Shown here: in pieces, positions 15,331 through 41,055 of the stretch
How the letters are laid out: each line of letters opens with the position of its first letter
How positions within the stretch are numbered: position 1 is the stretch's first letter
Virus record (IMG/VR): IMGVR_UViG_3300005330_000016
Coordinates: 13,983-77,982 of that record
Reading direction: 5' to 3' (one strand)
Source: a virus
Lineage: Duplodnaviria; Caudoviricetes
DNA length: 64,000 nt
Notes under the pieces: model-generated
Databases searched by the model: none
What the model was told of the DNA's origin: nothing
The model's input: only the letters and a program-made list of their open reading frames with translations
Position numbers and translations under genes: made by a program

Positions 15331-15571
15331 CATCTCTTAGCGTCAGGCTCTTTATCCTGACTTCTCCTCGTTTCCAAGGAGTGTGGGACTATATCTTCAC
15401 CCTGGTAGGGTGCCGCGCACTCGTGGGGCTTTACCGTCCGGTCTGGACTCCATGCCCTAGTCTCTGAACCTTCCGACCATTCCTGATCGGCTTGGCTGCT
15501 GATTACCTGTACGGCTTCCAGCAATTCACGCGGTAACTACAGCGTATTACTACGCTGCGCGGCCAGATTCG
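15331..15571 (-). ncRNA. Group I self-splicing intron (IA-like, no ORF) in major capsid gene
   Basis: P AATTGCTGGAAG, Q AATCAGCAGC, R GTTCAGAGACTAG, S AAGATATAGTCC; U at 5' exon end, terminal G; splicing restores HWIPV-TNRML in frame. Confidence 0.93.
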
Positions 15572-16302
15572 ACCGGGATCCAGTGAGCCATGGTCCTGAC
15601 GGTTGCGGTCTGCGTGCTGTATGCGAGCGCAGACTCAGGCTTGACACCGCTACCACCGAGAGCAGTCGCGTCAAAGGCCGTAGCCTCAGCGACGAACGCA
15701 GCAGAGTTGGTGAACGTGGATTCACGCACGTACTCAATGGTGTCTGAGTCGGTCGGGCTGCGCGGGATCAGATCCAGCACGTTGAGCGGGTTCTGGAGGA
15801 TATCCAAGAAGCCCGGCTGGTGGTCTTCCAAGACGAACGCCTGACCCGAAGTGGACGAACCACCGCGCAACAGGGTCTTCTGGTTGGCCCAGTCCAGCAT
15901 GCTGGTGCCTTCGGCCATCGTCACATCAAGGTTGACGCGGGTCAGGTTGCTGTTGAACAGACCCGACATCTTGGCTTCGCGGTAGTCCACGCTGCCCAGG
16001 AATTGCTGGCCCGGCGAAAAGCGCCGGCCTTCGGGAGTGGTGTTGTCACCAGCCGCCGATGGTCGGTTCTGCGGCTTGCTGTGCCGATCCAGCGATTGCA
16101 GGATGCGCTTGCGCCGCACCTCAGCGTCTTCCAGGGTGACGAGCCGTGCTTCAAGGTCGTCAACCTCTTGGAAGATCTGCTTGACGTGCTCGCGCTCTTC
16201 CTGCGGCATCTTCTCGGGGTCGTCGTATCTCTTTTCGATCAGATCGGCTTCCTGCATGCGAGTCTTGATCTCGGCAGTAGCCTCTTGAACGGTCATAGCC
16301 AT
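15572..16302 (-). CDS. Major capsid protein (HK97 fold), exon 1 including delta domain (start ATG 16302)
   Basis: N-terminal coiled coil, then LDLIPRSPTDSDTIEYVRE, KPESALAY, VRTMAHWIPV; spliced product is 437 aa. Confidence 0.95.
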
Positions 16303-16309
16303 GGTGGAG

Positions 16310-17170
16310 CTAAACCTCAATGCCACGCTGGCGCAGCCTGCGCCGGCGAAGCTCGAACGCCAAAGACATGTCAGCTTTTTCGTCGGCTGGCACGTCAGTG
16401 CTGGGCGGTAGTTCCGGCTCGCTTTGCTTGTGGGCCAGGACCGCTTCAGCATCGGAACGCACGGCGTCCATCTCAGAGAACGTCTCCAAGAGCGCTTCAA
16501 GGTCTGTCCGCTTGCTATCGGTCAGGTCAAAGTCACCTGCCTGTAGCTTGGCGAGTAGATCGCGGCAGCGCTCACGGAACGCAGCCACGGTATCAGTCAG
16601 TGTTTTGGTCAGGTCGGCCAAACTCAGCCGCGAGTAGTCAAGCGTATCAACGCTCTTCATCTCGCGCATAAGCTTCTCGTAAGTGCGAATCACACCTTCA
16701 AGGTCTGTCTCAGACTTGACGGATTGCACTCGCGCCTGGTCGTTCATGGGGATGCTGACTACGCTGTTTTCCAGCAAGTCAATCTCTTTGAGCAGCCGCG
16801 TGTCGCCTTCGTTGGCCCACTCCCAGGTCTTGGGGATGTAGCCGATACTCATAGAGCGAATCGCGCCACGCTTGAGAAGCTTGTAGGCGTCCAGGCCCTG
16901 CTGGGTGTCGATGATCTCCCAGGTTCCGAGTAAGCCCTTGCCGTCTTCCTTGATCGACTTCTCGATGCCGATGGGCGAACGCGGGTCGTGCTGCCAGAGC
17001 AGCGGTCGGTCGCGGTTGGTGTTGGTCAGCGTGCCCTTGAAGGCACCCTTCTCGATGATGTCGCCGCCGTGGTCTTCGTTACCAAAAGTCGATGCGTAGG
17101 CGGTGAAAGTCATGGCGTCGGAGCCGTCTTTCACGTCAACCAGCGTTAGCGGAATGGACTTGTAGAGCAC
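16310..17170 (-). CDS. HK97-type prohead protease (peptidase S78)
   Basis: YASTFGNEDHGGDIIEKGAF, LLWQHD, SMSIGY, ENSVVSIPMN. Confidence 0.95.
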   Translation of the reverse strand: MLYKSIPLTLVDVKDGSDAMTFTAYASTFGNEDHGGDIIEKGAFKGTLTNTNRDRPLLWQHDPRSPIGIEKSIKEDGKGLLGTWEIIDTQQGLDAYKLLKRGAIRSMSIGYIPKTWEWANEGDTRLLKEIDLLENSVVSIPMNDQARVQSVKSETDLEGVIRTYEKLMREMKSVDTLDYSRLSLADLTKTLTDTVAAFRERCRDLLAKLQAGDFDLTDSKRTDLEALLETFSEMDAVRSDAEAVLAHKQSEPELPPSTDVPADEKADMSLAFELRRRRLRQRGIEV

Positions 17171-19101: not shown

Positions 19102-20164
19102 AGATCGGGTTTGACAGCCGCTTGTTGGGCCGGCGCTTCGGAACCGTAACGTGTTCCGGAACATGTGCCGGTTTATCCAGATGCGCCTGGACGCCGCGAG
19201 CGACGTTCTCGAAGGCGTGGGCCAGGTTCAGGAACTCTTCGGGTGGCATGCGCTCTTCGACAAGGATCACACCTTCGCGGGCAATCCTGACCATCACGTG
19301 AGTGCCCTGCGCAGCGGTATCTTCGCCAAATGCGAAGTTCCACTCGTGCGCGATATCAAAGTCCATCGGAGTCATCGGCAGTACGCCGGCCAGTAACCGC
19401 GTATCGCGTCAGCGTTGCAGCGCTCGATGATCGCGTTGCCCGGGCCGCGCATCGTGACTTCCGCCGTAGTCATCGGGTTGACCAGGGCGAACGACAGGAT
19501 GACGAGCGCTGGCAGGATCACGAAGACCACGAAGAGCGCAGCCTCACCGCACCAGTGCCAGAAGTTGCTCGGCGGCTTCACGGATCCTCGCCTTCTCTTC
19601 AGCGGCTTGAGCCGTCACAAGCATCGTGTTGCGCTCTGCCAGGCCCGCCAGCCGCGTGATCTCGCCATCGGCGGCAGTCAGCTTGGCTTCTAGCTCGGCC
19701 CGCTGAGCCGCTTCCTGTGCAGCCGTGGCGTGCGCCTGCTGGTGGATAGCGTGGATCTGGTTGCCCAGGTCGCCAAGGTCCGTCATTAGCTTGGTGTTCG
19801 TCTCGGTCTTTGCCTGTACGTCGGCTTGAGCGTCCTGTAGCGCGGCTACCGCGTCGGCTAGCTCTTCTTGAAGCACCTTGATCTGGTCGCGCAGCTTCTT
19901 GACCTGAGCCTTCTCCCAAAGGCCCGTAGACGTTTCCTGCCAGCGCTCAGCCACGACCGGCAGCGGGTCGTCGGAATGGTCACCGAACTTGTCGCGTGCT
20001 TCATGCTGCTCGGCTCGCATCACCGCTAGCTCTTGCAGAAGCTTGGGGATGTCGTTGCCGTACCAGGCTTGCGCACCATCGGGCGTCAGGAACGTGTTGG
20101 CACGTGTCGCCATCGCGGCCAGGTCGGCTGGCTCTAAACGAACGTACTCGGCTGTTGCCGGCAT
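19085..20164 (-). other. Three hypothetical ORFs: 19085-19375, 19372-19581 (one TM segment), 19544-20164 (coiled coil)
   Basis: ORF track, overlapping stop/start coupling, heptad pattern. Confidence 0.55.
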
Positions 20165-23342: not shown

Positions 23343-24581
23343 TCTTGAAAACCCCTTGACAGATCTAGAGCGGCGGGCGTAAGCTACGGACATGAGCAAC
23401 CACATCGAGAACCTGAGCGACGAACTGGTAGCCGCGAACGCCGAGAGCCTGAGCCTTCAGGACGGCATGATGAGCCTGGTTAGCTACCTGATGAGCGACA
23501 AGTTCGCCACTGACCAGAACGTGAACGTAGCCGATGTCATCCTGCGGATCTCTGAGACGCTGAGCGCAGCACGTGACGAGCGTGACGCGGCACTGCTCAA
23601 CGAGCGCGGCCCGAAGCCCGTAGCAAGCTTCAAAGGCTGGGCTTGCCCGATCTGCCGCGAAACGCTGCAAGACAGCCCGATCTGGGACGCCGACGCCAAG
23701 GCTGAGCGTCGGATGCGAGATCACTGGACAGCCAACCACAAGGCCCGCTAAGCGGGCCGGAAAGGCAAACGACCATGAAGCAACCAATGACGCCCGAGAA
23801 GCTCGCTCAGAACGCATACCTGAAGCGAGAGCGCATGTACCAGATCATGCACATCCGCGAGCAGGCGAACTATGACGAGCACGTCGTGGACTTCGCCGGC
23901 GAGCCAGTTAGCCTCAGCGAACTGGCCGAGTTGTGGGTGCCGGCATAACGCCGGCATTCCCTATTGACAGATCAAGCGCGCAGGAGTAAGTTACGAGTAT
24001 GAACAGCACCCAAGCAGCCAAGCTCCAGAGCTTTGAAGAACTCGCCGCCCGCCAGATCGACCGACTGGCCCAGTCGCCCGAGAGCAAGATGGTTCAGAAC
24101 GAGACTCGCGGGTTCCGCCTGACTTGGACGAAGGCTCTGGTCACCAAGTACGGATGCGACAAAGCCGACATCAACGCAGCTTGGAATCGAGCGAAGGAGG
24201 GACGATGATCCCAACCTACACCGTGATCTACGGATCACACACCCTCAACACCGAGTGGGTTCTCGGAACCTACTCCACCATCGAAGCCGCAATGCGGCAG
24301 TTCGATTCCCTCTCTTCCATCCGCCACAGCGACGAGTACGTCGTTGTTCACACTGAGTGGGCCTAGTTGGCCCACTCGCGGAGCAAGCCATGACCACCAA
24401 CAAGTCACCGTGGGAACTTCTAGCCTACGCCCAGGGCCGCAAGGCTTACATGATCGGGCGAACGCTCGCCAGCAACCCGTATACGTCCGGCTCGGATCTC
24501 GCACAAGCCTTCTACGATGGATTCGATGACGAGATGCACCGACCTGATCGCCCGCTTGACCCGCCGGACTTGCCACTCTAG
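23323..24581 (+). other. Antisense early cassettes 4/5: two promoters plus ORFs 23392-23751, 23999-24208, 24205-24366, 24390-24581
   Basis: TTGACA 23356/TAAGCT 23380/ATG 23392; TTGACA 23964/TAAGTT 23987/ATG 23999. Confidence 0.75.
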
Positions 24582-26086
24582 TGGCTCGTGCCGTTGACCA
24601 GCCGTGCCGTGATGCGCCTGCGCTGATTGTTCTGTAGCTTGTCGAGATCCACGGCCATTCCCTCAGCCGCCGTGTCAACTACAGCCTGAATAGCCTCAGC
24701 GAACGCATCGCCACGAGCCTTACTGCCAGCAGGAGCACCACTTGGACCACCGGGCGGCAGCGTTGGCTTACGGGCTTCCTGTAGCGCTAGCTGTTGAGCC
24801 GCTTCCTCTGCGGGATCCGTCACGCTGTCGTCTACCTTGACCCACTTGCCCGACGTAGGCACCCACAGCGAATCATCGCCAGCCAGCACGTCGAAGCCTA
24901 GCTCTCGCAGGCCCATCTCACGAGACATCAGCCCGCCCATCACGTCTGCCAGAATGCGGGCGTGCTTGGCGTTCTCGTCTTCCTGCAACGAGCGCACCTC
25001 GCTCAGGTCGTGAGCAATGACGATACGCCGGTCGCTCGTGAAGTCTTTGCGCAGCTTGCGGTTCCACTTGGCTTCGTCCATCACCCACAGCGGAACGATG
25101 GTTAGCTCCGTGAAGTTCTCGCGCACTTGCCTTGCAGAGGCATAGTTGCTGGTCTGCTCCAGCCCGACGCCTAGCCGGGCAACGAGAGGATCAACGCCCA
25201 TAACGGCTGCGATTCGAGTCTCGGGCACGTCGTGCAGGATCTTCAGGTTCATCTGCTCCGGCGAGAAGCCAAACTGATCCATATCGGCTCCACCCGTTAG
25301 CACGCTCACCGTGCCGCGCCGCTCGCCACCGAATGCGTTCGCAATGGAGTTCTTTAGCTCTTGTACCTGCTTCTCGCTGAGCATCGTCTCAGAGGGTATT
25401 TTGGCGACCAGGCCCGGCGTGCCAAAGTTCCTGAGCAAGGCGTCTGCATAACGAGTCGCTTCGCCGTCTGAGGCAATCTCGCGGATCAGCCGCTTCAGTG
25501 GCGCGATGCCCTTGCGTACGTCCAGCGGGTCAACGCCAAGCTTGAAGTGGATGACGTTCTCAACCGGGATCTGCTCGGGGCCGCGACCGTCGAACCGATC
25601 CATCTCGTAGAAGTCGATGAAGTTGCTAGAGCCGCGCCCGGTTTTGGGCCGCATAACGCTCGGGCTGACCGGCCATAGCTCAACGACGTTACCCGCGCCT
25701 GATCGGACTTTGAGTAGGTAAGCGTTGCCGTCAATGTGCCGCGCCCAGGCCGACCACCAGCGGATTTCGTTCAGGTCTAGCTCGGGATGCGGCTCATCGA
25801 ACAGGTCAAGGATTGGATGCTCGAAGAGCGGCTCACGCTCCTGCTTGGCGTCCAGCTTGTAGACGCGCAGCGGAGCTTCGATGCTGGCAAAGGCCAGGGC
25901 GCGCAAGCAAGCGAAAACAGCCGAGTTGCCGTCGCCGCCGTACTCACCGTCGTATGGTCGCGTGCCTGCCGTGTAGACGAGATGGTTTACGTACTGCCAG
26001 TTGACCGTAGGATCGGCCGGCGTGAACTTCTGCTCGATTGACTGGCCGGTGATAGCCGACCACGCGGCTTGGAAGATGTTAGCCAC
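24578..26086 (-). CDS. Portal protein (HK97 family)
   Basis: AVFACLR, DGNAY, ELWPV, VIHFK, GIAPL, RNFGTPG, RIAAVMGVDP. Confidence 0.95.
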   Translation of the reverse strand: MANIFQAAWSAITGQSIEQKFTPADPTVNWQYVNHLVYTAGTRPYDGEYGGDGNSAVFACLRALAFASIEAPLRVYKLDAKQEREPLFEHPILDLFDEPHPELDLNEIRWWSAWARHIDGNAYLLKVRSGAGNVVELWPVSPSVMRPKTGRGSSNFIDFYEMDRFDGRGPEQIPVENVIHFKLGVDPLDVRKGIAPLKRLIREIASDGEATRYADALLRNFGTPGLVAKIPSETMLSEKQVQELKNSIANAFGGERRGTVSVLTGGADMDQFGFSPEQMNLKILHDVPETRIAAVMGVDPLVARLGVGLEQTSNYASARQVRENFTELTIVPLWVMDEAKWNRKLRKDFTSDRRIVIAHDLSEVRSLQEDENAKHARILADVMGGLMSREMGLRELGFDVLAGDDSLWVPTSGKWVKVDDSVTDPAEEAAQQLALQEARKPTLPPGGPSGAPAGSKARGDAFAEAIQAVVDTAAEGMAVDLDKLQNNQRRRITARLVNGTSH

Positions 26087-26171
26087 GTGGCCTGCCTCCT
26101 TATCGAATCTTTGAAATTGGTGCCGGCAACTATTGACACCCCTTGACTACCTATGCTATATTCAAGTTGGC

Positions 26172-26275
26172 AAGAGAGAGAGGACCGCAAGTAAGGGGCC
26201 TGGGATCACCCGAAAGGGTCTGTCCCAATCTCACGAGACTGCGGATAGGGGGTTCGAATCCCCCCTCTCTTACCA
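26172..26275 (+). ncRNA. tRNA-like RNA with acceptor stem, T-arm and 3' ACCA but no anticodon loop
   Basis: AAGAGAG/CTCTCTT 7-bp stem, GGGGG-TTCGAAT-CCCCC T-arm, ACCA; own promoter TTGACA 26133, TG-n-TATATT 26157. Confidence 0.75.
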
Positions 26276-26288
26276 CTCAAACCAGTAG

Positions 26289-28334
26289 CTATCGTGCGTT
26301 GTAGTGAGTGCTGATCGTGCCGCTGCTCAACGCGGTCCCGCTCCAGACAGCAATCTCGTCCAGCGTGCCCTTGACGTAGTAGAACGTGCCGCCGTCCAGA
26401 TCTACGCCGAAGTTCGCGGTCGTCGGAGTTGCAGCCGTGATGCTGGTCGAATCGCTCGCCGTAGACGCCGTGCCGTTGTTGACGTAGAGCTTCATGGTCG
26501 TGCCGTCGTAGGTCGCTACGACGTGGTACCAAGTGCTCGTAGCCAGCGTCGTCGTGTTCGTCGTTGCCACTTGCGCGTTGGTGTCATGCCAGCGCTGGAA
26601 GTAGAAGTGCGGGGTTGTGTCTACACTGACGTTCCAGCCATGACGATTGCCTGAGCCGTCATTGCGGCTCTTCTGAACAAGCATCTGCGTCGTGCCCGGC
26701 CAGGACGAAGGCGACTTGTACCAGAACTCAACGCTAAAGCTTGTCGTCCCGGTGAAACCGTAGTTGTCACCCATGCTGAGCGCGTCGTTGGTGCCGTCGA
26801 ACGTGACCGCTGTGTCGGCATCACAAGTCAGGTTGCTGGTCGCGCCCAGTGTCGGGCCACCGGCATACGTGCCGCTAATTGCACCCACGTACGGGCTTGC
26901 CGTGGTCCCGCTTGGTTCCCCCAGTCGCCAGTAGCTCGATGGACTCGAAGCGGCTACTTCATGGGCGTACAGACCGTTCGTGAACGTCTGGTACGCACCG
27001 ATCTGAACCGGGCAGCCGCTCGTCCTGCTCAGGCCGGCTCGGTCTACGTTGAGCGGGATAGACTCGCTGTAGTAGCCGGTCTTGCTGGCGATGTACGTAG
27101 CGTGGTTGTAAGCCGCAGAGCTTTGGCTGCTCAGTGTCCAGTTAGACGCCCAGTTGGTGATCAGTGGGTCGCCGGTCTGCGGGTTGCTCTGGCTCGGGAT
27201 GTTGGTCGTGCAGCCAGGATTCCTGAACAGGTTGTAGTCAACCGTGCGCCCGGTCGTGTTGCCGTCGTCGGTCAAGCCGTTCGAGCAGGTTTCAACGATG
27301 TTGTTCTTCCAGACCGGGTTGTGGTTGTGGCTACTCCAGCCGCCGCCGTTCTGCTCGCGCATTGCGGTACCGGCCTTGTAGATGTCGTTGTGGTACGCGC
27401 CGCACTCTTCACAGCCCTGCATCATCATGCCGTAGGCCCAGCCAGCCGTCGTGTTGGACGTGACGATGTTGTTGACCGCCGTGTTGTAGTAGCCCTCATA
27501 CGAGCAGCCCGTACAGTCGCCGGTCGCGCCACCTGACGAGCCGCCCAGGTCAATGCCAATACCGGCTGTGTTGGTGCTCGTTAGCTGGATCAGGTTGTCT
27601 CGTACCTGAGCGGATCTCGTGCCGCCTTTGGTCTGGATGCCGTCACCTGGCGTGCCAGGCGTAGCGAACAGCAGCGGGTTCTGGATCGTGTTGCGCTGGA
27701 AGACCGGGCGAACGCCACCATACGAAGCCAGGCACTGGTAGCAATCGTAGATTGTGTTGTTGTCGATCAGCGCATCAGCGCTACTCGTCGTCACCTTGAT
27801 CGGCGTCTGCGAGTTGTGCAGCTTCGAGTTCTTGACCGTGACGTTGTTGCTAGCTCCGTTGACGCCAATCCAGATGAGCTTGTCGTCATAGCTCGCGCTG
27901 TCACCGAGAGTCGCCTGCGTGAACTCGAAGCCATCGAAAACCACGTTTGACTTGGCGTCAAGGCCCAGCTTGTACGTGTTCTTCGCGCCGGTTGGAGCGG
28001 TGATGATCGCGCCGTACTGGCTCGTGCTGACGAACGTGATCGGGTTGCCCGCTGAGCCTGAGCTAGCAAAGTTGATCATGCCGTTGCTCGGGTCGGTGTA
28101 CGTGCCCGACGCGAAGTTGACTACATCGCCGGCTGACAACGTGTGCTCGGCGGCATAGCGGAACGTCAGCCACGGCCCATGCCCGCCACCAACGGTTGCA
28201 GACAGGCCGTCGTTTGAGTTGCTGCCCGTAGAAGCGTTGACGTAGTACTGCGTCCCGGCGTGCACCACGCTAGCCGGAACGATGAAGACCGCCAACAGGC
28301 AGAGCACCAGGGCTGATCGTCGCAAGAAGTTCAT
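26289..28334 (-). CDS. Secreted parallel beta-helix (pectin lyase-like) protein with C-terminal LamG/concanavalin domain (start ATG 28334)
   Basis: Signal peptide MNFLRRSALVLCLLAVFIVPASVVHA; YYVNASTGSNSNDG; Asn-ladder repeats; YWRLGE, FSVEFW, WYHVVATYDG, GTLDEIAVW. Confidence 0.8.
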   Translation of the reverse strand: MNFLRRSALVLCLLAVFIVPASVVHAGTQYYVNASTGSNSNDGLSATVGGGHGPWLTFRYAAEHTLSAGDVVNFASGTYTDPSNGMINFASSGSAGNPITFVSTSQYGAIITAPTGAKNTYKLGLDAKSNVVFDGFEFTQATLGDSASYDDKLIWIGVNGASNNVTVKNSKLHNSQTPIKVTTSSADALIDNNTIYDCYQCLASYGGVRPVFQRNTIQNPLLFATPGTPGDGIQTKGGTRSAQVRDNLIQLTSTNTAGIGIDLGGSSGGATGDCTGCSYEGYYNTAVNNIVTSNTTAGWAYGMMMQGCEECGAYHNDIYKAGTAMREQNGGGWSSHNHNPVWKNNIVETCSNGLTDDGNTTGRTVDYNLFRNPGCTTNIPSQSNPQTGDPLITNWASNWTLSSQSSAAYNHATYIASKTGYYSESIPLNVDRAGLSRTSGCPVQIGAYQTFTNGLYAHEVAASSPSSYWRLGEPSGTTASPYVGAISGTYAGGPTLGATSNLTCDADTAVTFDGTNDALSMGDNYGFTGTTSFSVEFWYKSPSSWPGTTQMLVQKSRNDGSGNRHGWNVSVDTTPHFYFQRWHDTNAQVATTNTTTLATSTWYHVVATYDGTTMKLYVNNGTASTASDSTSITAATPTTANFGVDLDGGTFYYVKGTLDEIAVWSGTALSSGTISTHYNAR

Positions 28335-35006: not shown

Positions 35007-35081
<75 letters not shown>

Positions 35082-37299: not shown

Positions 37300-37482
37300 C
37301 TAAGCCGATCTCCTGCGGTACTCTCGCTGGTACTCTCGGTACCGTTCACGATTATCGTCTACCCAGCGCTTGGTCCGGATCACCATACACGGCTTGCAGT
37401 ATGCCCGTACCCTGTCGGATCCTGTTCGCCAGCCGAAGTCAATGATGTCTTTCACCTGGCCGCAGTCCGGACAACGCCTCAT
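37300..37482 (-). CDS. Zn-finger protein (CxxC..F..CKPC)
   Basis: Typical HNH-associated Zn-finger pattern. Confidence 0.6.
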   Translation of the reverse strand: MRRCPDCGQVKDIIDFGWRTGSDRVRAYCKPCMVIRTKRWVDDNRERYREYQREYRRRSA

Positions 37483-38924
37483 AACAACTCCGATTGACCA
37501 ATCACTTCACGCCCGAGTCGGTTAGCCGCGATGGCGCAGTAGCTCTCGTCCATCTCAATACCAATAGCGCGAAAGCCCTTCGCCGCCAGCAACGTGGTCC
37601 CGCTGCCCATGAACGGATCTAGCACGCAGCCATCCGGTGGAGTCACCATAGCAACCAGCCAGCGCATGAGCGCCAACGGCTTGACCGTGGGGTGCGAGTT
37701 GCCTTCGCCACGTTCTGATCGGCTGGCCTTGGCCGTGTAGAAGAATCGAGAAGCGCCGCCGGTGTCGCCATACGTATTGCTATCGTTGTAGATCGCGTCC
37801 TCAAAAACGCTGTAGGCGGTCCCATGAGAACGCTCTCGACTGTTATGGGGTTGCCGCTTACTACTCTTTAGCTCCCCGCTCATCTGATCGAGCAAGGCCG
37901 CAGCGTCTTCGTCCAGGCACACGTTGGCCGGCCAGCGACCGGCGGGGTGGCGATGGGTACCTACAGTTTCGCCGTCTGCATCACGGAATCCCCATCCATC
38001 CTGCCTGGTATTACCGCGATTCTTTGCACCCCACGTCCCCTCCAGACCGGGCGTGTGCTCAATCCTGCATCCGTCCACATTGATAGCGCCGGTGCCGTAG
38101 CGCTGGACGTTCTCAGCTACCGTGCCCTGGAGTGGTTTCCGGGCCATGATGATCGGCTCCCAGGCCGGCTTGAGCGCCGTGCCCCAGCCTTCCCACTGTT
38201 TTGCTGCGTCGGTAGCAGGGGCGGTGATTGGTGCAACGTCGCCGTGGTGTTCGAGTGTCCAAGCATCCTGGGCATACACGCCGTTACTTCCACCACCGTG
38301 CCGATTGCCTGGCCCAGTAACCTCGCGCTCAACACCCGCTGCCTTGTCGATTGCCTTGCTCACGTCCAGCGATTTGGGGAAACCTGAGCCGTACAGCCAA
38401 CTCAGGCAATCTCGAATCTCAAAGCCCGCGTCCTCAATCGCACACGTCAAGCGGTGGAAGGTTCTGCTTCCGCCAAATGCCAGCAGATGCCCGCCCGGCT
38501 TCAAGACGCGGAGTGCCTCACGCGCCCAGGCTTCGTGCCATTCCTGCATGAGCTTTGCCTGATCTGGCCGCGCACTCGGGAAATCCGGCTTGTCACAGTG
38601 ACACCGCTTGCCGCCGCCGCCCGCATCGCCCTCTGTATGGCCCCACTTCCACTTACCGCAATTACGGCACCGAACGTTGCTTGATCCATTGAAGTTCACG
38701 CGTGCAGCGCGTCCAAATACTGTCGAGCCATCATATTTCGGGATGCCGCCGTGGCTCACCTTGCCAATATCACCAAGCCGATCCCACTCCTTGCCCATAA
38801 ACTCAAGCCCGTAGGGCGGGTCGCACACGATGGCGTCGATGCTCTCCGGCTCCATCTCGGACATGGCGATACGGCAATCCGCGTTGTAGATCACGACGCC
38901 GGGTCGCTCGTAATACGGAGTCAC
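37479..38924 (-). CDS. DNA N4-cytosine/N6-adenine methyltransferase 1 (start GTG 38924)
   Basis: DPPYG, VLKPGG, WLYGSGFPKS, LKPAWEPI, HPTVKP, LDPFMGSGTT. Confidence 0.95.
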   Translation of the reverse strand: MTPYYERPGVVIYNADCRIAMSEMEPESIDAIVCDPPYGLEFMGKEWDRLGDIGKVSHGGIPKYDGSTVFGRAARVNFNGSSNVRCRNCGKWKWGHTEGDAGGGGKRCHCDKPDFPSARPDQAKLMQEWHEAWAREALRVLKPGGHLLAFGGSRTFHRLTCAIEDAGFEIRDCLSWLYGSGFPKSLDVSKAIDKAAGVEREVTGPGNRHGGGSNGVYAQDAWTLEHHGDVAPITAPATDAAKQWEGWGTALKPAWEPIIMARKPLQGTVAENVQRYGTGAINVDGCRIEHTPGLEGTWGAKNRGNTRQDGWGFRDADGETVGTHRHPAGRWPANVCLDEDAAALLDQMSGELKSSKRQPHNSRERSHGTAYSVFEDAIYNDSNTYGDTGGASRFFYTAKASRSERGEGNSHPTVKPLALMRWLVAMVTPPDGCVLDPFMGSGTTLLAAKGFRAIGIEMDESYCAIAANRLGREVIGQSELL

Positions 38925-39223
38925 GCAGCCCGAGACACCAGATGGTCTACCCGGCTCAGCGTCACGCCCCTGCCCTTGCACTTCGGGCACACAAGCCTGT
39001 ACCGCGTCACCAGCTTGTCGTGATCTTCTTCGGTCATCTCGTGGAATGTCTCGTGCGAGCACACGAAGCACGTCTGCACCCAGGTCAGCGTTGGCTCAAC
39101 CTTGACCAGCAGGCTCTTGGTCATGTCGGTACCGTGGTCTTCGCAGTACACGTCACCATCTGCCGCTAACGAACGGCAGTAATCCGCTACGCACTTTTCA
39201 ATCGCTTTGCGCGGCTTGCCCAT
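38921..39223 (-). CDS. Zn-binding hypothetical protein
   Basis: CFVC, CPKC. Confidence 0.55.
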   Translation of the reverse strand: MGKPRKAIEKCVADYCRSLAADGDVYCEDHGTDMTKSLLVKVEPTLTWVQTCFVCSHETFHEMTEEDHDKLVTRYRLVCPKCKGRGVTLSRVDHLVSRAA

Positions 39224-39331: not shown

Positions 39332-40789
39332 TCACGATACGTCCATCTCGGTGAACATCGGTGCTTCGCCTGTCACGCGATTCACTGCCTGCTGCGCATA
39401 CTCTGGATTCAACTCACAGCCGATGGCGTTACGCCCCAGTCGCTCGGCCACCATGCCCACCGTGCCACTGCCGAAGAACGGGTCAAGTACCACTTGCGGT
39501 ACGGGCGTCAGGTCCGCATGAACGCAGGTCGGTTGCCAGCCGGTGGTCGTAACTTCGGTACCAGAACTCTGCCCGTTGGTATTGTGTATGCGCTGTTGCG
39601 TCCAGCCAGTAGTAGGAGCATAAGGTATCGCGCCACGGGCTAAGCCGTCGCGTTCTTCCCGCTCGTTCCATCGCTGTTTTTCAACCACCCGCGCCCACGG
39701 CGCACCGCACTCCGGGCACTGGCCCTTCTCGGACGTGCCGGCCTTGATCATCGGCTCGACCAGCTTCGGCGGAAAGGTTGCGTAGTGCGAACCCTTGTAC
39801 GGGGCCGGATTCACGATCAGCGCAAGTGGCTCGCCGTCTTCGTCTAACTCTAGCCCCTGCCACGACTCGAAAAACCAATCGCTGTTACGACGGCTGCGAC
39901 CGGTTAGGCTGTCCGGTGCGGCACGTCCCACGCCTTCGGGTCGCGCAGCCGAGTTGCCGATTTTATCGGCTACGTGATCCTTGTATACGCCCACACCCCG
40001 GAACTCTTCGTTACGCCTGGTCGGCTCGCCTACCCTGGTACGCACCGCGTCGGCGTCCCAGTAGTAGCGAGCCGACTTGCTCAGCAGAAACACGTACTCC
40101 ACGGCTGACGCTGGTCGGTCGGTCACGCTCTCGGGCATGCTGTTGCGTTTGAGCCACGGTATCTGGCTACGCAGGTACCAGCCGTCAGCCTGTAGAGCCA
40201 TCGCCACCCTGACCGGCATCATCATCAGGTCTTTGGCCTTGAAGCCCACGTCTACCCTGGTCGGTGCAGCCGTGAAGCCCTGGCGATTGCCCTGATCACC
40301 GATGCCGTTATGCCCAGTCGGCCCCTTGCCGGATCCTGCGTAGCTATCACCCATGTTGACCCATATGCAGCCGTCGTCCCTGAGCACGCGGCGCACTGCA
40401 CGAAACACCTCTACCAGATGCTCTAGAAATAGCTCGGGTGTCGGCTCTAGCCCTAATGAGCCACACCACGCACCGCACTCGCACACTGAGCCTTGAGAAA
40501 TATCTGTCGTCCTGACCTTATCGGCGTACACCTTGGCCGGCTCGTGACTCCCTGCCCAATTGGTAAGAGTGCTACTTGGGCCGCCAAGTGTTGCGCCCAA
40601 AGTGACTCGCCGGGTGGCAGCCTCACCCCACTCATGCGCGTGCTGCGTGTCACCACCCCACACCAATGGCTCTAGCCCGTAATCTCTTAGCCCGTAGTAG
40701 GGCGGGCTGGTTACGACGCACTGCACGCTCTTCTCGGGCAGCGTAGCCAGCGTGTCAACGCAATGCCCGACCAGCAGCCGCGTAGACAT
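39332..40789 (-). CDS. DNA N4-cytosine/N6-adenine methyltransferase 2 (start ATG 40789)
   Basis: TSPPYYGLRDY, DDGCIWVNMGDSY, MPESVTDRP, HYATFP, VLDPFFGSGT. Confidence 0.95.
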   Translation of the reverse strand: MSTRLLVGHCVDTLATLPEKSVQCVVTSPPYYGLRDYGLEPLVWGGDTQHAHEWGEAATRRVTLGATLGGPSSTLTNWAGSHEPAKVYADKVRTTDISQGSVCECGAWCGSLGLEPTPELFLEHLVEVFRAVRRVLRDDGCIWVNMGDSYAGSGKGPTGHNGIGDQGNRQGFTAAPTRVDVGFKAKDLMMMPVRVAMALQADGWYLRSQIPWLKRNSMPESVTDRPASAVEYVFLLSKSARYYWDADAVRTRVGEPTRRNEEFRGVGVYKDHVADKIGNSAARPEGVGRAAPDSLTGRSRRNSDWFFESWQGLELDEDGEPLALIVNPAPYKGSHYATFPPKLVEPMIKAGTSEKGQCPECGAPWARVVEKQRWNEREERDGLARGAIPYAPTTGWTQQRIHNTNGQSSGTEVTTTGWQPTCVHADLTPVPQVVLDPFFGSGTVGMVAERLGRNAIGCELNPEYAQQAVNRVTGEAPMFTEMDVS

Positions 40790-41055
40790 CAGATCGGCAA
40801 CTCCGATGGCACGTACGTCTCGCCATCTACCGTGATCGGCTTGGGCTTCCAGTCTCGCGCATGCTTGGTCGGAACGCCCTTCGCCAGCTTCGCCGTGTTG
40901 AGCACGCCTGGGCACCGCGACTTGTTCTGGTGATCAACCTGGCATGTGCCGAACCCAAACTCGTCTAGCACCGCGCCGTGCTGTTCTTCGGCGTGATCGT
41001 GCCAGCCGTGATGTGTCTCCTGCTGATTCCAGCAAACCCCGCAAGTGTGCTTCAT
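40789..41055 (-). CDS. Hypothetical Cys/His-rich protein
   Basis: Coupled ORF; CGVC, HxxHxH. Confidence 0.5.
   Translation of the reverse strand: MKHTCGVCWNQQETHHGWHDHAEEQHGAVLDEFGFGTCQVDHQNKSRCPGVLNTAKLAKGVPTKHARDWKPKPITVDGETYVPSELPI

What the first reader, a model, noticed from the sequence alone, without database searches (positions are those of the whole stretch)
26172..26275. Anticodon-less tRNA mimic with its own promoter
This 104-nt RNA has a perfect 7-bp acceptor stem (AAGAGAG/CTCTCTT), a canonical T-arm (GGGGG-TTCGAAT-CCCCC), discriminator A and an encoded CCA. Where the anticodon arm should be there is an extended stem capped by a GAAA tetraloop (GGGA..ACCC-GAAA-GGGT..TCCC). An alternative fold (CCGCA/TGCGG plus a 3-nt linker to the T-arm) looks like a tmRNA tRNA-like domain, but there is no G3.U70 and no tag ORF. 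It cannot decode. Possible roles: decoy for tRNA-targeting toxins or uncharged-tRNA sensors (RelA, T-boxes), a sponge for EF-Tu or a synthetase, or an aminoacyl donor (LeuRS and SerRS ignore the anticodon; A73 plus a long variable region is Leu-like).
Basis: partly seen in the sequence, partly recalled or inferred. Interest (0 to 1): 0.8.

Follow-up and report, generated by a model that had tools for sequence, protein, structure and literature searches.

The report
Orphan anticodon-less tRNA look-alike gene in phage
A 78-kb uncultured phage carries a small RNA gene with its own strong promoter that copies the amino-acid-accepting half of a tRNA but has a long closed hairpin where the codon-reading loop should be; no relative was found anywhere and expression could not be checked, so its job is a guess.

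Summary
Window 26172-26275 (+) has a perfect 7-bp acceptor stem, a canonical T-arm (GGGGG-TTCGAAT-CCCCC), A73 and an encoded CCA. It lies 9 nt downstream of the best sigma-70-type promoter in the region.

As transcribed it has no anticodon loop. Positions 14-73 fold into one long arm of about 21 bp capped by GAAA (z -2.9). ARAGORN and Rfam do not call it a tRNA or a tmRNA.

New points:
- Deleting 16 nt (26207-26222) restores a UUCCCAA loop, and ARAGORN then calls tRNA-Gly(CCC). However, 23% of interior shuffles give such a call, so this reading is not significant.
- The acceptor/T-arm sequence is of the type seen in phage tRNA-Ser genes.
- The promoter belongs to a seven-member phage promoter family (TGCCGGCA...TTGACA).
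- The RNA gene and a neighbouring secreted beta-helix/LamG gene form one 2.2-kb block that the closest relative lacks.
- No homologue turned up in viral contigs, metagenome contigs or related phages. An independent assembly is 100% identical.

Best reading: an expressed, non-decoding tRNA mimic, probably a decoy or ligand for a host factor that binds the tRNA top half. The function is inferred, not shown. Earlier notes of this scan describe similarly designed "long-armed" tRNA mimics on other phage DNA; I did not check them.

The parts
26121..26128 (.). TGCCGGCA palindrome, shared upstream element of a phage promoter family
   Evidence: TGCCGGCA-N(4-24)-TTGACA occurs 7 times in the window against 0.03 expected. 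The same palindrome also marks both ends of the 2.2-kb indel.
26133..26162 (+). Sigma-70-type promoter: -35 TTGACA, 18-nt spacer, extended -10 TGcTATATT
   Evidence: 11 of 12 consensus positions plus TG; best site in 20-32 kb. Unique in the window.
26169..26171 (+). Predicted transcription start and 1-3 nt leader (inferred)
   Evidence: Lies 7-9 nt after the -10. In six sister promoters an ATG lies at about the same distance. The phage tRNA-Met has the same gene design.
26172..26178 (+). Acceptor stem, 5' strand AAGAGAG
   Evidence: Pairs with 26265-26271: 7 Watson-Crick pairs.
26179..26184 (+). Junction AGAGGA (positions 8-13). It has no U8; its GG may stand in for G18 G19 (inferred).
   Evidence: Sequence; unpaired in the constrained fold.
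26185..26244 (+). Long composite arm of about 21 bp: CCGCA/UGCGG base, AA/GAG and CC/AU internal loops, GAAA cap
   Evidence: -25.6 kcal/mol, z -2.92, 3 of 200 shuffles as good. Pair probabilities 0.9-1.0.
26202..26226 (+). Apical hairpin in the place of the anticodon arm: GGGAU/GUCCC plus ACCC-GAAA-GGGU
   Evidence: Pair probability about 1.0; the anticodon-type stem UGGGA/UCUCA has 0.00.
26207..26222 (+). 16 nt whose removal in silico gives the loop UUCCCAA (candidate insert; not significant)
   Evidence: ARAGORN in intron mode and on the deleted sequence. 92 of 400 shuffles give such a call.
26245..26247 (+). AUA linker between the long arm and the T-arm
   Evidence: Sequence.
26248..26264 (+). 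T-arm GGGGG-UUCGAAU-CCCCC
26265..26271 (+). Acceptor stem, 3' strand CUCUCUU
   Evidence: In viral contigs this strand after this T-loop is nearly always part of a tRNA-Ser gene.
26272..26275 (+). Discriminator A73 and encoded CCA
   Evidence: The phage tRNA-Met also encodes ACCA.
26289..28334 (-). 681-aa gene: signal peptide, right-handed beta-helix, C-terminal LamG/ConA-like domain. Convergent neighbour, and part of the same indel.
   Evidence: Pfam Beta_helix 8e-9 and Laminin_G_3 2e-20; sequence; indel.
26104..28333 (.). 2.2-kb accessory block (RNA gene plus 681-aa gene) missing from the closest relative L016
   Evidence: In blastn, L016 joins window 28334 directly to window 26103, sharing 19 nt at the joint.

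Best explanation
This is a real small-RNA gene derived from a tRNA, probably a Ser-type class II tRNA. Host RNA polymerase transcribes it from a strong sigma-70-type promoter that starts 1-3 nt before the acceptor stem.

The RNA keeps everything that tRNA-end enzymes read: a 12-bp acceptor/T-arm stack, a T-loop, A73 and CCA. RNase P and 3' trimming should therefore give a stable tRNA-like molecule.

The D arm, anticodon arm and variable arm are replaced by one rigid arm of about 21 bp with a GAAA cap. As made, it cannot read codons.

It is an accessory gene, absent from the nearest relatives. I infer that it works as a mimic: a decoy or ligand for a host protein that recognises the tRNA top half or the CCA end. 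Examples are a tRNA-directed defence or toxin nuclease, a nucleotidyltransferase, or a processing or charging enzyme.

Shown: the anatomy, the promoter match, the fold stability and the accessory status. Inferred: expression, processing and the decoy role.
For: Top half and CCA are intact, and the motif is far above chance.

The promoter matches 11 of 12 positions with TG. It belongs to a seven-member promoter family whose other members sit directly before small ORFs.

The phage's genuine tRNA-Met has the same layout: its own promoter, 18-nt spacer, 5' end a few nt after the -10, encoded ACCA.

The long arm is significantly stable and dominates the ensemble.

ARAGORN and Rfam do not accept it as a tRNA, tRNA-Sec or tmRNA: 19.4 bits against 29, and 17.4 against 47.

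The gene lies in a 2.2-kb block missing from the closest relative and from 5 related records.

The sequence is identical in an independent ENA assembly, so it is not an assembly artefact.

The top half is perfect while the lower half is completely rebuilt. That pattern is not what random decay gives.
Against: There is only one sequence: no homologue, so no covariation and no proof of selection.

There is no expression data.

No intrinsic terminator follows the CCA, so the 3' end must come from processing.

No partner protein is known, and the phage encodes no recognisable tRNA enzyme among the proteins scanned.

A decoy without an anticodon loop would not distract nucleases that read the anticodon.

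The unconstrained fold prefers a shifted acceptor register.
Confidence: 0.4

Rival explanations
1. Interrupted tRNA gene. The 16 nt CACCCGAAAGGGUCUG (26207-26222) are an insert between positions 32 and 33 of an anticodon loop. Cutting them out and rejoining would give an 88-nt class II tRNA with loop UUCCCAA (anticodon CCC) on a body that is not of Gly type.
For: ARAGORN in intron mode calls tRNA-Gly(CCC) with a 16-nt intron. With the 16 nt deleted, default ARAGORN calls it.

The restored loop has U33, a purine at 37 and a 5-bp stem.

Unexplained tRNA introns are reported in Lak megaphages (PMC6784885).

Metagenomic tRNA-like genes with small GAAA-capped hairpins in the anticodon region exist, for example L065 (17 nt at 32/33) and L073 (10 nt).
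Against: With the acceptor and T-arm fixed and the interior shuffled, 92 of 400 shuffles get such a call. Intron mode also gives about one false call per 8 kb in related loci.

The cloverleaf with insert is about 20 kcal/mol worse than the long-arm fold, and its anticodon stem has probability 0.00.

The D region is not canonical (A8; no usual D-loop). There is no bulge-helix-bulge motif.

No RtcB, RNA ligase or splicing endonuclease is found in the complete genome.

A73, A1-U72 and A2-U71 do not fit Gly identity (my own knowledge of the E. coli Gly identity set).

GGG makes up only 13% of Gly codons.
Confidence: 0.12
2. Relic. A captured or decayed tRNA gene (Ser-type) that came along with the 2.2-kb block and has no function of its own.
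For: It is an orphan in every collection searched. It is absent from all relatives. The acceptor/T-arm is of the phage tRNA-Ser type. Class II-like length.
Against: The 12 top-half pairs, the T-loop, ACCA and a near-consensus promoter at tRNA-gene distance are all intact. The lower half, by contrast, is not mutated but rebuilt into a significantly stable GNRA-capped arm. Phage genomes lose useless DNA quickly (general knowledge).
Confidence: 0.2
3. Cis-antisense or processing element. The promoter fires against the late operon. The RNA is fully complementary to the late mRNA between the 681-aa gene and portal, and read-through would be antisense to the 681-aa gene. The tRNA shape would serve only as a stable 5' module or as an RNase P/E processing handle.
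For: Four of the seven family promoters point against the late operon. No terminator follows the CCA. The element fills the 202-nt gap between two late genes.
Against: The other antisense promoters drive ORFs rather than RNAs. An exact ACCA end and a canonical T-loop are not needed for an antisense role.
Confidence: 0.15
4. Non-decoding amino-acid carrier. The RNA is charged by a synthetase that ignores the anticodon (LeuRS or SerRS) and supplies, or sequesters, an aminoacyl group or the enzyme.
For: A73; a long extra arm; a Ser-type acceptor composition. Ser and Leu identity are anticodon-independent, and the tRNA-Leu anticodon arm is dispensable for charging (PMC9976931).
Against: It lacks the G1-C72, G2-C71 and G73 of bacterial Ser identity. 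The D-loop and tertiary elements used by LeuRS are not recognisable. The phage has no aminoacyl-transferase gene among the proteins scanned.
Confidence: 0.08

Closest known systems
Canonical class II tRNA, especially phage tRNA-Ser (Rfam RF00005)
   Same: 7-bp acceptor stem, 5-bp T-stem, UUCGAAU T-loop, N73-CCA, length in the class II range. It has a purine-rich acceptor strand, as in GGAGAG/AGAGAG tRNA-Ser genes: 27 of 31 viral loci with the same T-loop and 3' strand are tRNA-Ser.
   Different: No 7-nt anticodon loop, no U8, no canonical D-arm. RF00005 scores 19.4 bits, below the 29-bit cut-off. ARAGORN at default settings makes no call. The acceptor register and the discriminator differ from those tRNA-Ser genes.
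tRNA-like domain of tmRNA
   Same: Acceptor stem plus T-arm, joined through a short purine junction and a helix (CCGCA/UGCGG) that leads away from the tRNA core. No anticodon. Reviewed in PMC3985003, which was listed.
   Different: No G3.U70, no tag reading frame, no pseudoknots, about 100 nt rather than about 360. ARAGORN and Rfam give no tmRNA match.
Phage T4 small stable RNAs, RNAC and RNAD
   Same: Phage-encoded small RNAs of still unknown function (PMC9697503). That they lie in the T4 tRNA region and have tRNA-like features is my own knowledge.
   Different: I did not compare sequences. T4 RNAC and RNAD are reported as late RNAs, whereas this gene has a host-type promoter.
'Enigmatic' tRNA introns of Lak megaphages (Devoto et al. 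2019, PMC6784885)
   Same: Phage tRNA genes interrupted by inserts that bacterial tRNA finders reject. One reading of this element is a 16-nt insert at position 32/33.
   Different: [quoted passage not shown] Here the rest of the tRNA body is not canonical, and the insert reading is not significant.
tRNA-Sec and allo-tRNAs
   Same: A possible 6-bp D-stem (AGGACC/GGGCCU with one mismatch), a long extra region, and a weak tRNA-Sec match of 17.4 bits.
   Different: Below the cut-off (47 bits). No UCA or any other anticodon loop. A73 rather than G73. The D-stem has probability 0.00 in the ensemble.

Membership tests
Canonical tRNA (RF00005) | 7-bp acceptor stem, T-arm with T-loop consensus, N73(-CCA) | tested here: met
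Canonical tRNA (RF00005) | 5-bp anticodon stem with a 7-nt loop (U33, purine 37) | tested here: not met
   As transcribed, the arm is closed by GAAA and the alternative anticodon stem has probability 0.00. The feature is met only after deleting 16 nt, which is not significant.
Canonical tRNA (RF00005) | Score above the family cut-off, or a call by a tRNA finder | tested here: not met
   19.4 bits against 29. ARAGORN at default settings: none.
tmRNA | G3.U70 alanine identity pair | tested here: not met
   The pair is G3-C70.
tmRNA | Tag reading frame and pseudoknots; a call by ARAGORN or Rfam | tested here: not met
   No tmRNA call even at a 70% threshold. No Rfam tmRNA match at E up to 10.
tRNA-Sec | 8/5 or 9/4 fold, UCA anticodon, G73, score above cut-off | tested here: not met
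   17.4 bits against 47. A73. No anticodon loop.
Intron-containing tRNA (archaeal bulge-helix-bulge type) | Two 3-nt bulges separated by a 4-bp helix at the splice sites; a splicing endonuclease available | tested here: not met
   The hairpin has a 1x2 internal loop at its base, not bulges on opposite sides of the helix. No tRNA_int_endo in the phage.
Interrupted phage tRNA (Lak-type 'enigmatic' introns) | Removal of the insert restores a standard tRNA; the insert is conserved across relatives | tested here: inconclusive
   Default ARAGORN calls the deleted form, but 23% of shuffles behave alike. There is no relative in which to test conservation.
Y RNA-like (YrlA) with Ro/Rsr | Rfam match; a Ro (TROVE) protein gene nearby | tested here: not met
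   No Rfam match. No TROVE domain in the genome.
Phage attP core derived from a tRNA 3' end | Only the 3' part of a tRNA is present, next to an integrase gene | tested here: not met
   Both acceptor strands and a promoter are present. The neighbours are portal and a beta-helix gene. No integrase domain was seen among the roughly 30 proteins scanned, but the genome was not searched for one.

The most novel reading that the evidence does not exclude
The phage makes an abundant anticodon-less tRNA mimic early in infection. The mimic either soaks up a host immune effector that attacks tRNA acceptor ends or bodies, or is itself charged by LeuRS or SerRS and diverts the enzyme or the amino acid. Either way it would be an RNA-only counter-defence or take-over device built from a tRNA top half. 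Together with the similarly designed RNAs noted elsewhere in this scan, it would mark a wide, undescribed class of phage RNAs.
Probability: 0.15. Interest if true: 0.8.

Novelty: new variant of a known kind. Interest (0 to 1): 0.45.

Why it matters
tRNAs are a main battlefield between bacteria and phages. Host nucleases cut tRNAs, and phages answer with their own tRNAs (PMC10264068, PMC11555353, PMC12851939; all three were only listed and none was read).

A promoter-driven RNA that keeps only the part of a tRNA read by processing, charging and some defence enzymes would be a different kind of answer: a mimic rather than a spare part. If it were shown to be expressed and bound by a host factor, it would give a simple, testable model for the many odd tRNA-like genes in phage genomes that annotation tools skip.

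As it stands it is a single orphan sequence, so the value is that of a lead.

Tried and rejected
**Homologue searches**
- Synteny: the slot upstream of portal in 12 related loci, then 37, holds other DNA.
- Five related records, one of them complete, have no match.
- A covariance model of the element over 623 kb of loci finds only ordinary tRNAs at 25 bits or less.
- Exact or degenerate patterns gave 0 hits in viral contigs and 0 in metagenome contigs for T-arm plus acceptor plus ACCA.
- A generic pattern (CCGAAAGG ... T-loop ... CCA) in metagenomes returned 25 loci. These were normal tRNA-Ser and tRNA-Glu genes, likely tmRNAs, and several unrelated odd tRNA-like genes: analogues, not homologues.
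It gave one MAG contig labelled Cellvibrionaceae at 45% identity, which is too weak to name a host.
- Relatives of the 681-aa protein carry no tRNA-like neighbour.

**Expression**

**Readings rejected**
- tmRNA, tRNA-Sec, Y RNA, an attP core, a repeated mobile hairpin (the 16-mer is unique), and a coding ORF (only short ORFs overlap the element).

**Weak lead**
- A post hoc likeness of positions 22-39 to the 16S rRNA 3' end scores p about 0.02 against shuffles. I do not count it as evidence.

Full report
**Setting.** The window is part of a 77,982-base IMG/VR virus record that CheckV rates as complete. GC content is 59.6%. No cultured phage is close: portal identity to known phages is 33% or less.

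The element sits in the 202-nt gap between two minus-strand late genes. One is a 681-aa gene (26289-28334). The other is the portal gene (24578-26086; PHROG portal hit at 3e-52). The large terminase lies just upstream. The element is on the opposite (+) strand.

**Observation.**
- Acceptor AAGAGAG/CUCUCUU, 7 Watson-Crick pairs.
- T-arm GGGGG-UUCGAAU-CCCCC.
- A73-CCA.
- An apical hairpin capped by GAAA.
- The alternative helix CCGCA/UGCGG, with an AUA linker to the T-arm.

The T-loop 11-mer occurs twice in 64 kb against 0.03 expected. The other copy is in the phage's real tRNA-Met.

The promoter TTGACA-18-TGcTATATT matches 11 of 12 consensus positions and is the best site in 12 kb.

The RNA folds at -46.2 kcal/mol with z -3.1.

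Default ARAGORN finds only the tRNA-Met. Rfam finds nothing at gathering thresholds. Below threshold there are weak tRNA-Sec (17.4 bits) and tRNA (19.4 bits) matches. No tmRNA is found.

**The fold.** With the canonical acceptor and T-arm enforced, positions 14-73 form one composite arm. It consists of CCGCA/UGCGG, GU/AC, an AA/GAG internal loop, GGGG/C-CUC, a CC/AU loop, UGGGAU/GUCCCA, a 1x2 loop, and ACCC-GAAA-GGGU.
- Pair probabilities are 0.9-1.0.
- The arm alone gives -25.6 kcal/mol, z -2.9, with 3 of 200 shuffles as good.
- A class II cloverleaf with a 6-bp D-stem is about as good as the bare CCGCA/UGCGG version (-36.4 against -36.6 kcal/mol), but it is about 7 kcal/mol worse than the full long arm.

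In every version the apical hairpin 26202-26226 is closed, so the RNA as made has no anticodon loop.

The (AG)n/(CU)n run allows shifted acceptor registers, and the free fold prefers a shift of 4 nt.

**The intron reading, and why I do not trust it.** ARAGORN in intron mode at a 95% threshold calls tRNA-Gly(CCC) with a 16-nt intron (26207-26222). With these 16 nt deleted, default ARAGORN calls an 88-nt tRNA with loop UUCCCAA and stem UGGGA/UCUCA.

This looks striking, but the controls undercut it:
- With the acceptor and T-arm kept and the interior shuffled, 92 of 400 shuffles get an intron-mode call.
- The mode gives dozens of false calls in 484 kb of related loci.
- The cloverleaf with insert is about 20 kcal/mol worse than the long-arm fold.
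- The complete genome has no RtcB, Rnl-type ligase or splicing endonuclease.
- GGG makes up 13% of Gly codons.

I keep this reading as a rival at about 0.12.

**Origin of the top half.** In viral contigs, 31 loci hold GTTCGAATCC-N4-CTCTCTT. ARAGORN of them tRNA-Ser, one tRNA-Ile, and makes no call for three. The purine-rich acceptor and this T-arm are therefore the signature of phage tRNA-Ser genes, which are class II tRNAs of about 85-93 nt.

I infer descent from such a gene. The base-pair register and the discriminator differ, however. The element also lacks G1-C72, G2-C71 and G73, which the review PMC9976931 gives as bacterial Ser features.

**Promoter family and gene design.** TGCCGGCA followed within 4-24 nt by TTGACA occurs seven times in the window (0.03 expected).
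- Six of the sites have a -10 of the type TAAGGT/TAAGTT after 17 nt. In five of these an ATG follows within about 7-9 nt, which suggests leaderless mRNAs for small ORFs without PHROG matches; at the sixth (20156) no ATG follows closely.
- Four of the seven point against the late operon.
- The RNA gene's promoter shares the palindrome and the -35, and has the strongest -10.

The phage tRNA-Met has the same layout: TTGAGG-18-TATACT, 5' end 6 nt later, encoded ACCA. This is indirect support that the element is expressed as an RNA gene.

**Accessory status.** The closest relative (L016, portal 91% identical in protein) joins window 28334 directly to window 26103. The 681-aa gene and the RNA gene with its promoter are therefore one 2.2-kb indel, bounded by TGCCGGCA-containing junction repeats.

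The 681-aa protein has a signal peptide, a right-handed beta-helix and a LamG domain. It looks like a secreted carbohydrate-binding or carbohydrate-cutting protein. Nothing links it functionally to the RNA.

More distant relatives hold other genes upstream of portal.

**No homologue.** Pattern scans of viral contigs and metagenome contigs found nothing related. So did a covariance model over all fetched loci, five related records, and the contexts of the neighbour's relatives.

An independent ENA assembly of the same phage is 100% identical over 221 nt. The neighbour protein is on four contigs, one of them from a Logan assembly. The sequence is therefore real, but there is no variation to read.

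A generic scan did show that odd tRNA-like genes with GAAA-capped hairpins in or near the anticodon region exist in metagenomes: L054, L055, L063, L065, L073. These are analogues only.

**Mechanism.**
- Shown: anatomy, promoter match, fold, accessory status.
- Inferred: transcription by host polymerase; RNase P and exonuclease trimming to a tRNA-like RNA of about 104 nt (the top half is the known recognition unit for these enzymes; general knowledge); no decoding.

A remodelled lower half under an untouched top half argues for a mimic that some tRNA-binding protein should mistake for a tRNA. Candidates are enzymes or defence effectors that act on the acceptor end or the tRNA body. Recent papers report such effectors (titles listed; not read).

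I put about 0.4 on 'expressed non-decoding mimic acting as decoy or ligand'. I put 0.2 on a relic, 0.15 on a cis-antisense or processing role, 0.12 on an interrupted tRNA, and 0.08 on a charged carrier.

**Verdict.** It is a new variant of a known kind (phage tRNA-like small RNAs, the tmRNA-like top half). It is an orphan with no expression or conservation data. Interest is moderate.

Earlier notes of this scan report long-armed tRNA mimics of similar design on other phage DNA. I did not verify them, and they share no sequence with this one.

Noticed in passing
window 15364-15581 (-): Group I intron (Rfam 74.7 bits, E 4e-17). It overlaps the 3' end of an ORF (15550-16500) that has a weak Phage_capsid match, so the major capsid gene appears to be split by a self-splicing intron.
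   Followed up: partly
window 35007-35081 (-): The phage tRNA-Met looks like an initiator: three G-C pairs above the anticodon loop and an A1xA72 mismatch. It encodes ACCA and has its own promoter, TTGAGG-18-TATACT, ending 6 nt before the 5' end.
   Followed up: partly
window 20156, 23938, 26121, 28334, 36055(-), 53829, 55813: A promoter family: TGCCGGCA, then 4-24 nt, TTGACA, 17 nt, TAAGGT/TAAGTT. An ATG follows about 7-9 nt later at five of the six non-RNA sites (apparently leaderless small ORFs of unknown function); not at 20156. Four sites fire against the late structural operon. The palindrome also lies between the RBS and the start codon of late genes on the other strand.
   Followed up: partly
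window 26289-28334 (-): A 681-aa protein with a Sec-type signal peptide, a right-handed beta-helix and a C-terminal LamG/ConA-like domain, sitting inside the head-gene block. It is absent from the closest relative and has only distant homologues (64% identity or less, over 22% of its length).
   Followed up: partly
The local alignment beats all but 41 of 2000 shuffles. This is a post hoc comparison, and the segment is base-paired in the predicted arm.
   Followed up: partly
L065:4069-4174, L073:8075-8162, L055:288-386, L054 (around 2355-2471), L063/L074: Metagenomic tRNA-like genes that ARAGORN does not call. They have good acceptor and T arms, some have canonical D-arms, and they carry GAAA-capped hairpins in or beside the anticodon loop (for example a 17-nt insert at 32/33 of a Tyr-like gene in L065). 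L063 and L074 differ by a symmetric extension of a stem.
   Followed up: partly
L092:2014-2102: A viral contig carries an uncalled tRNA-like element of about 89 nt, with the same acceptor strands (AAGAGAG/CTCTCTT) and the same T-loop but an unrelated interior.
   Followed up: no
window 37479-39071 and 39332-40915 (-): Two neighbouring N6/N4 DNA methyltransferase genes (Pfam N6_N4_Mtase, 1e-30 and 2e-39).
   Followed up: no
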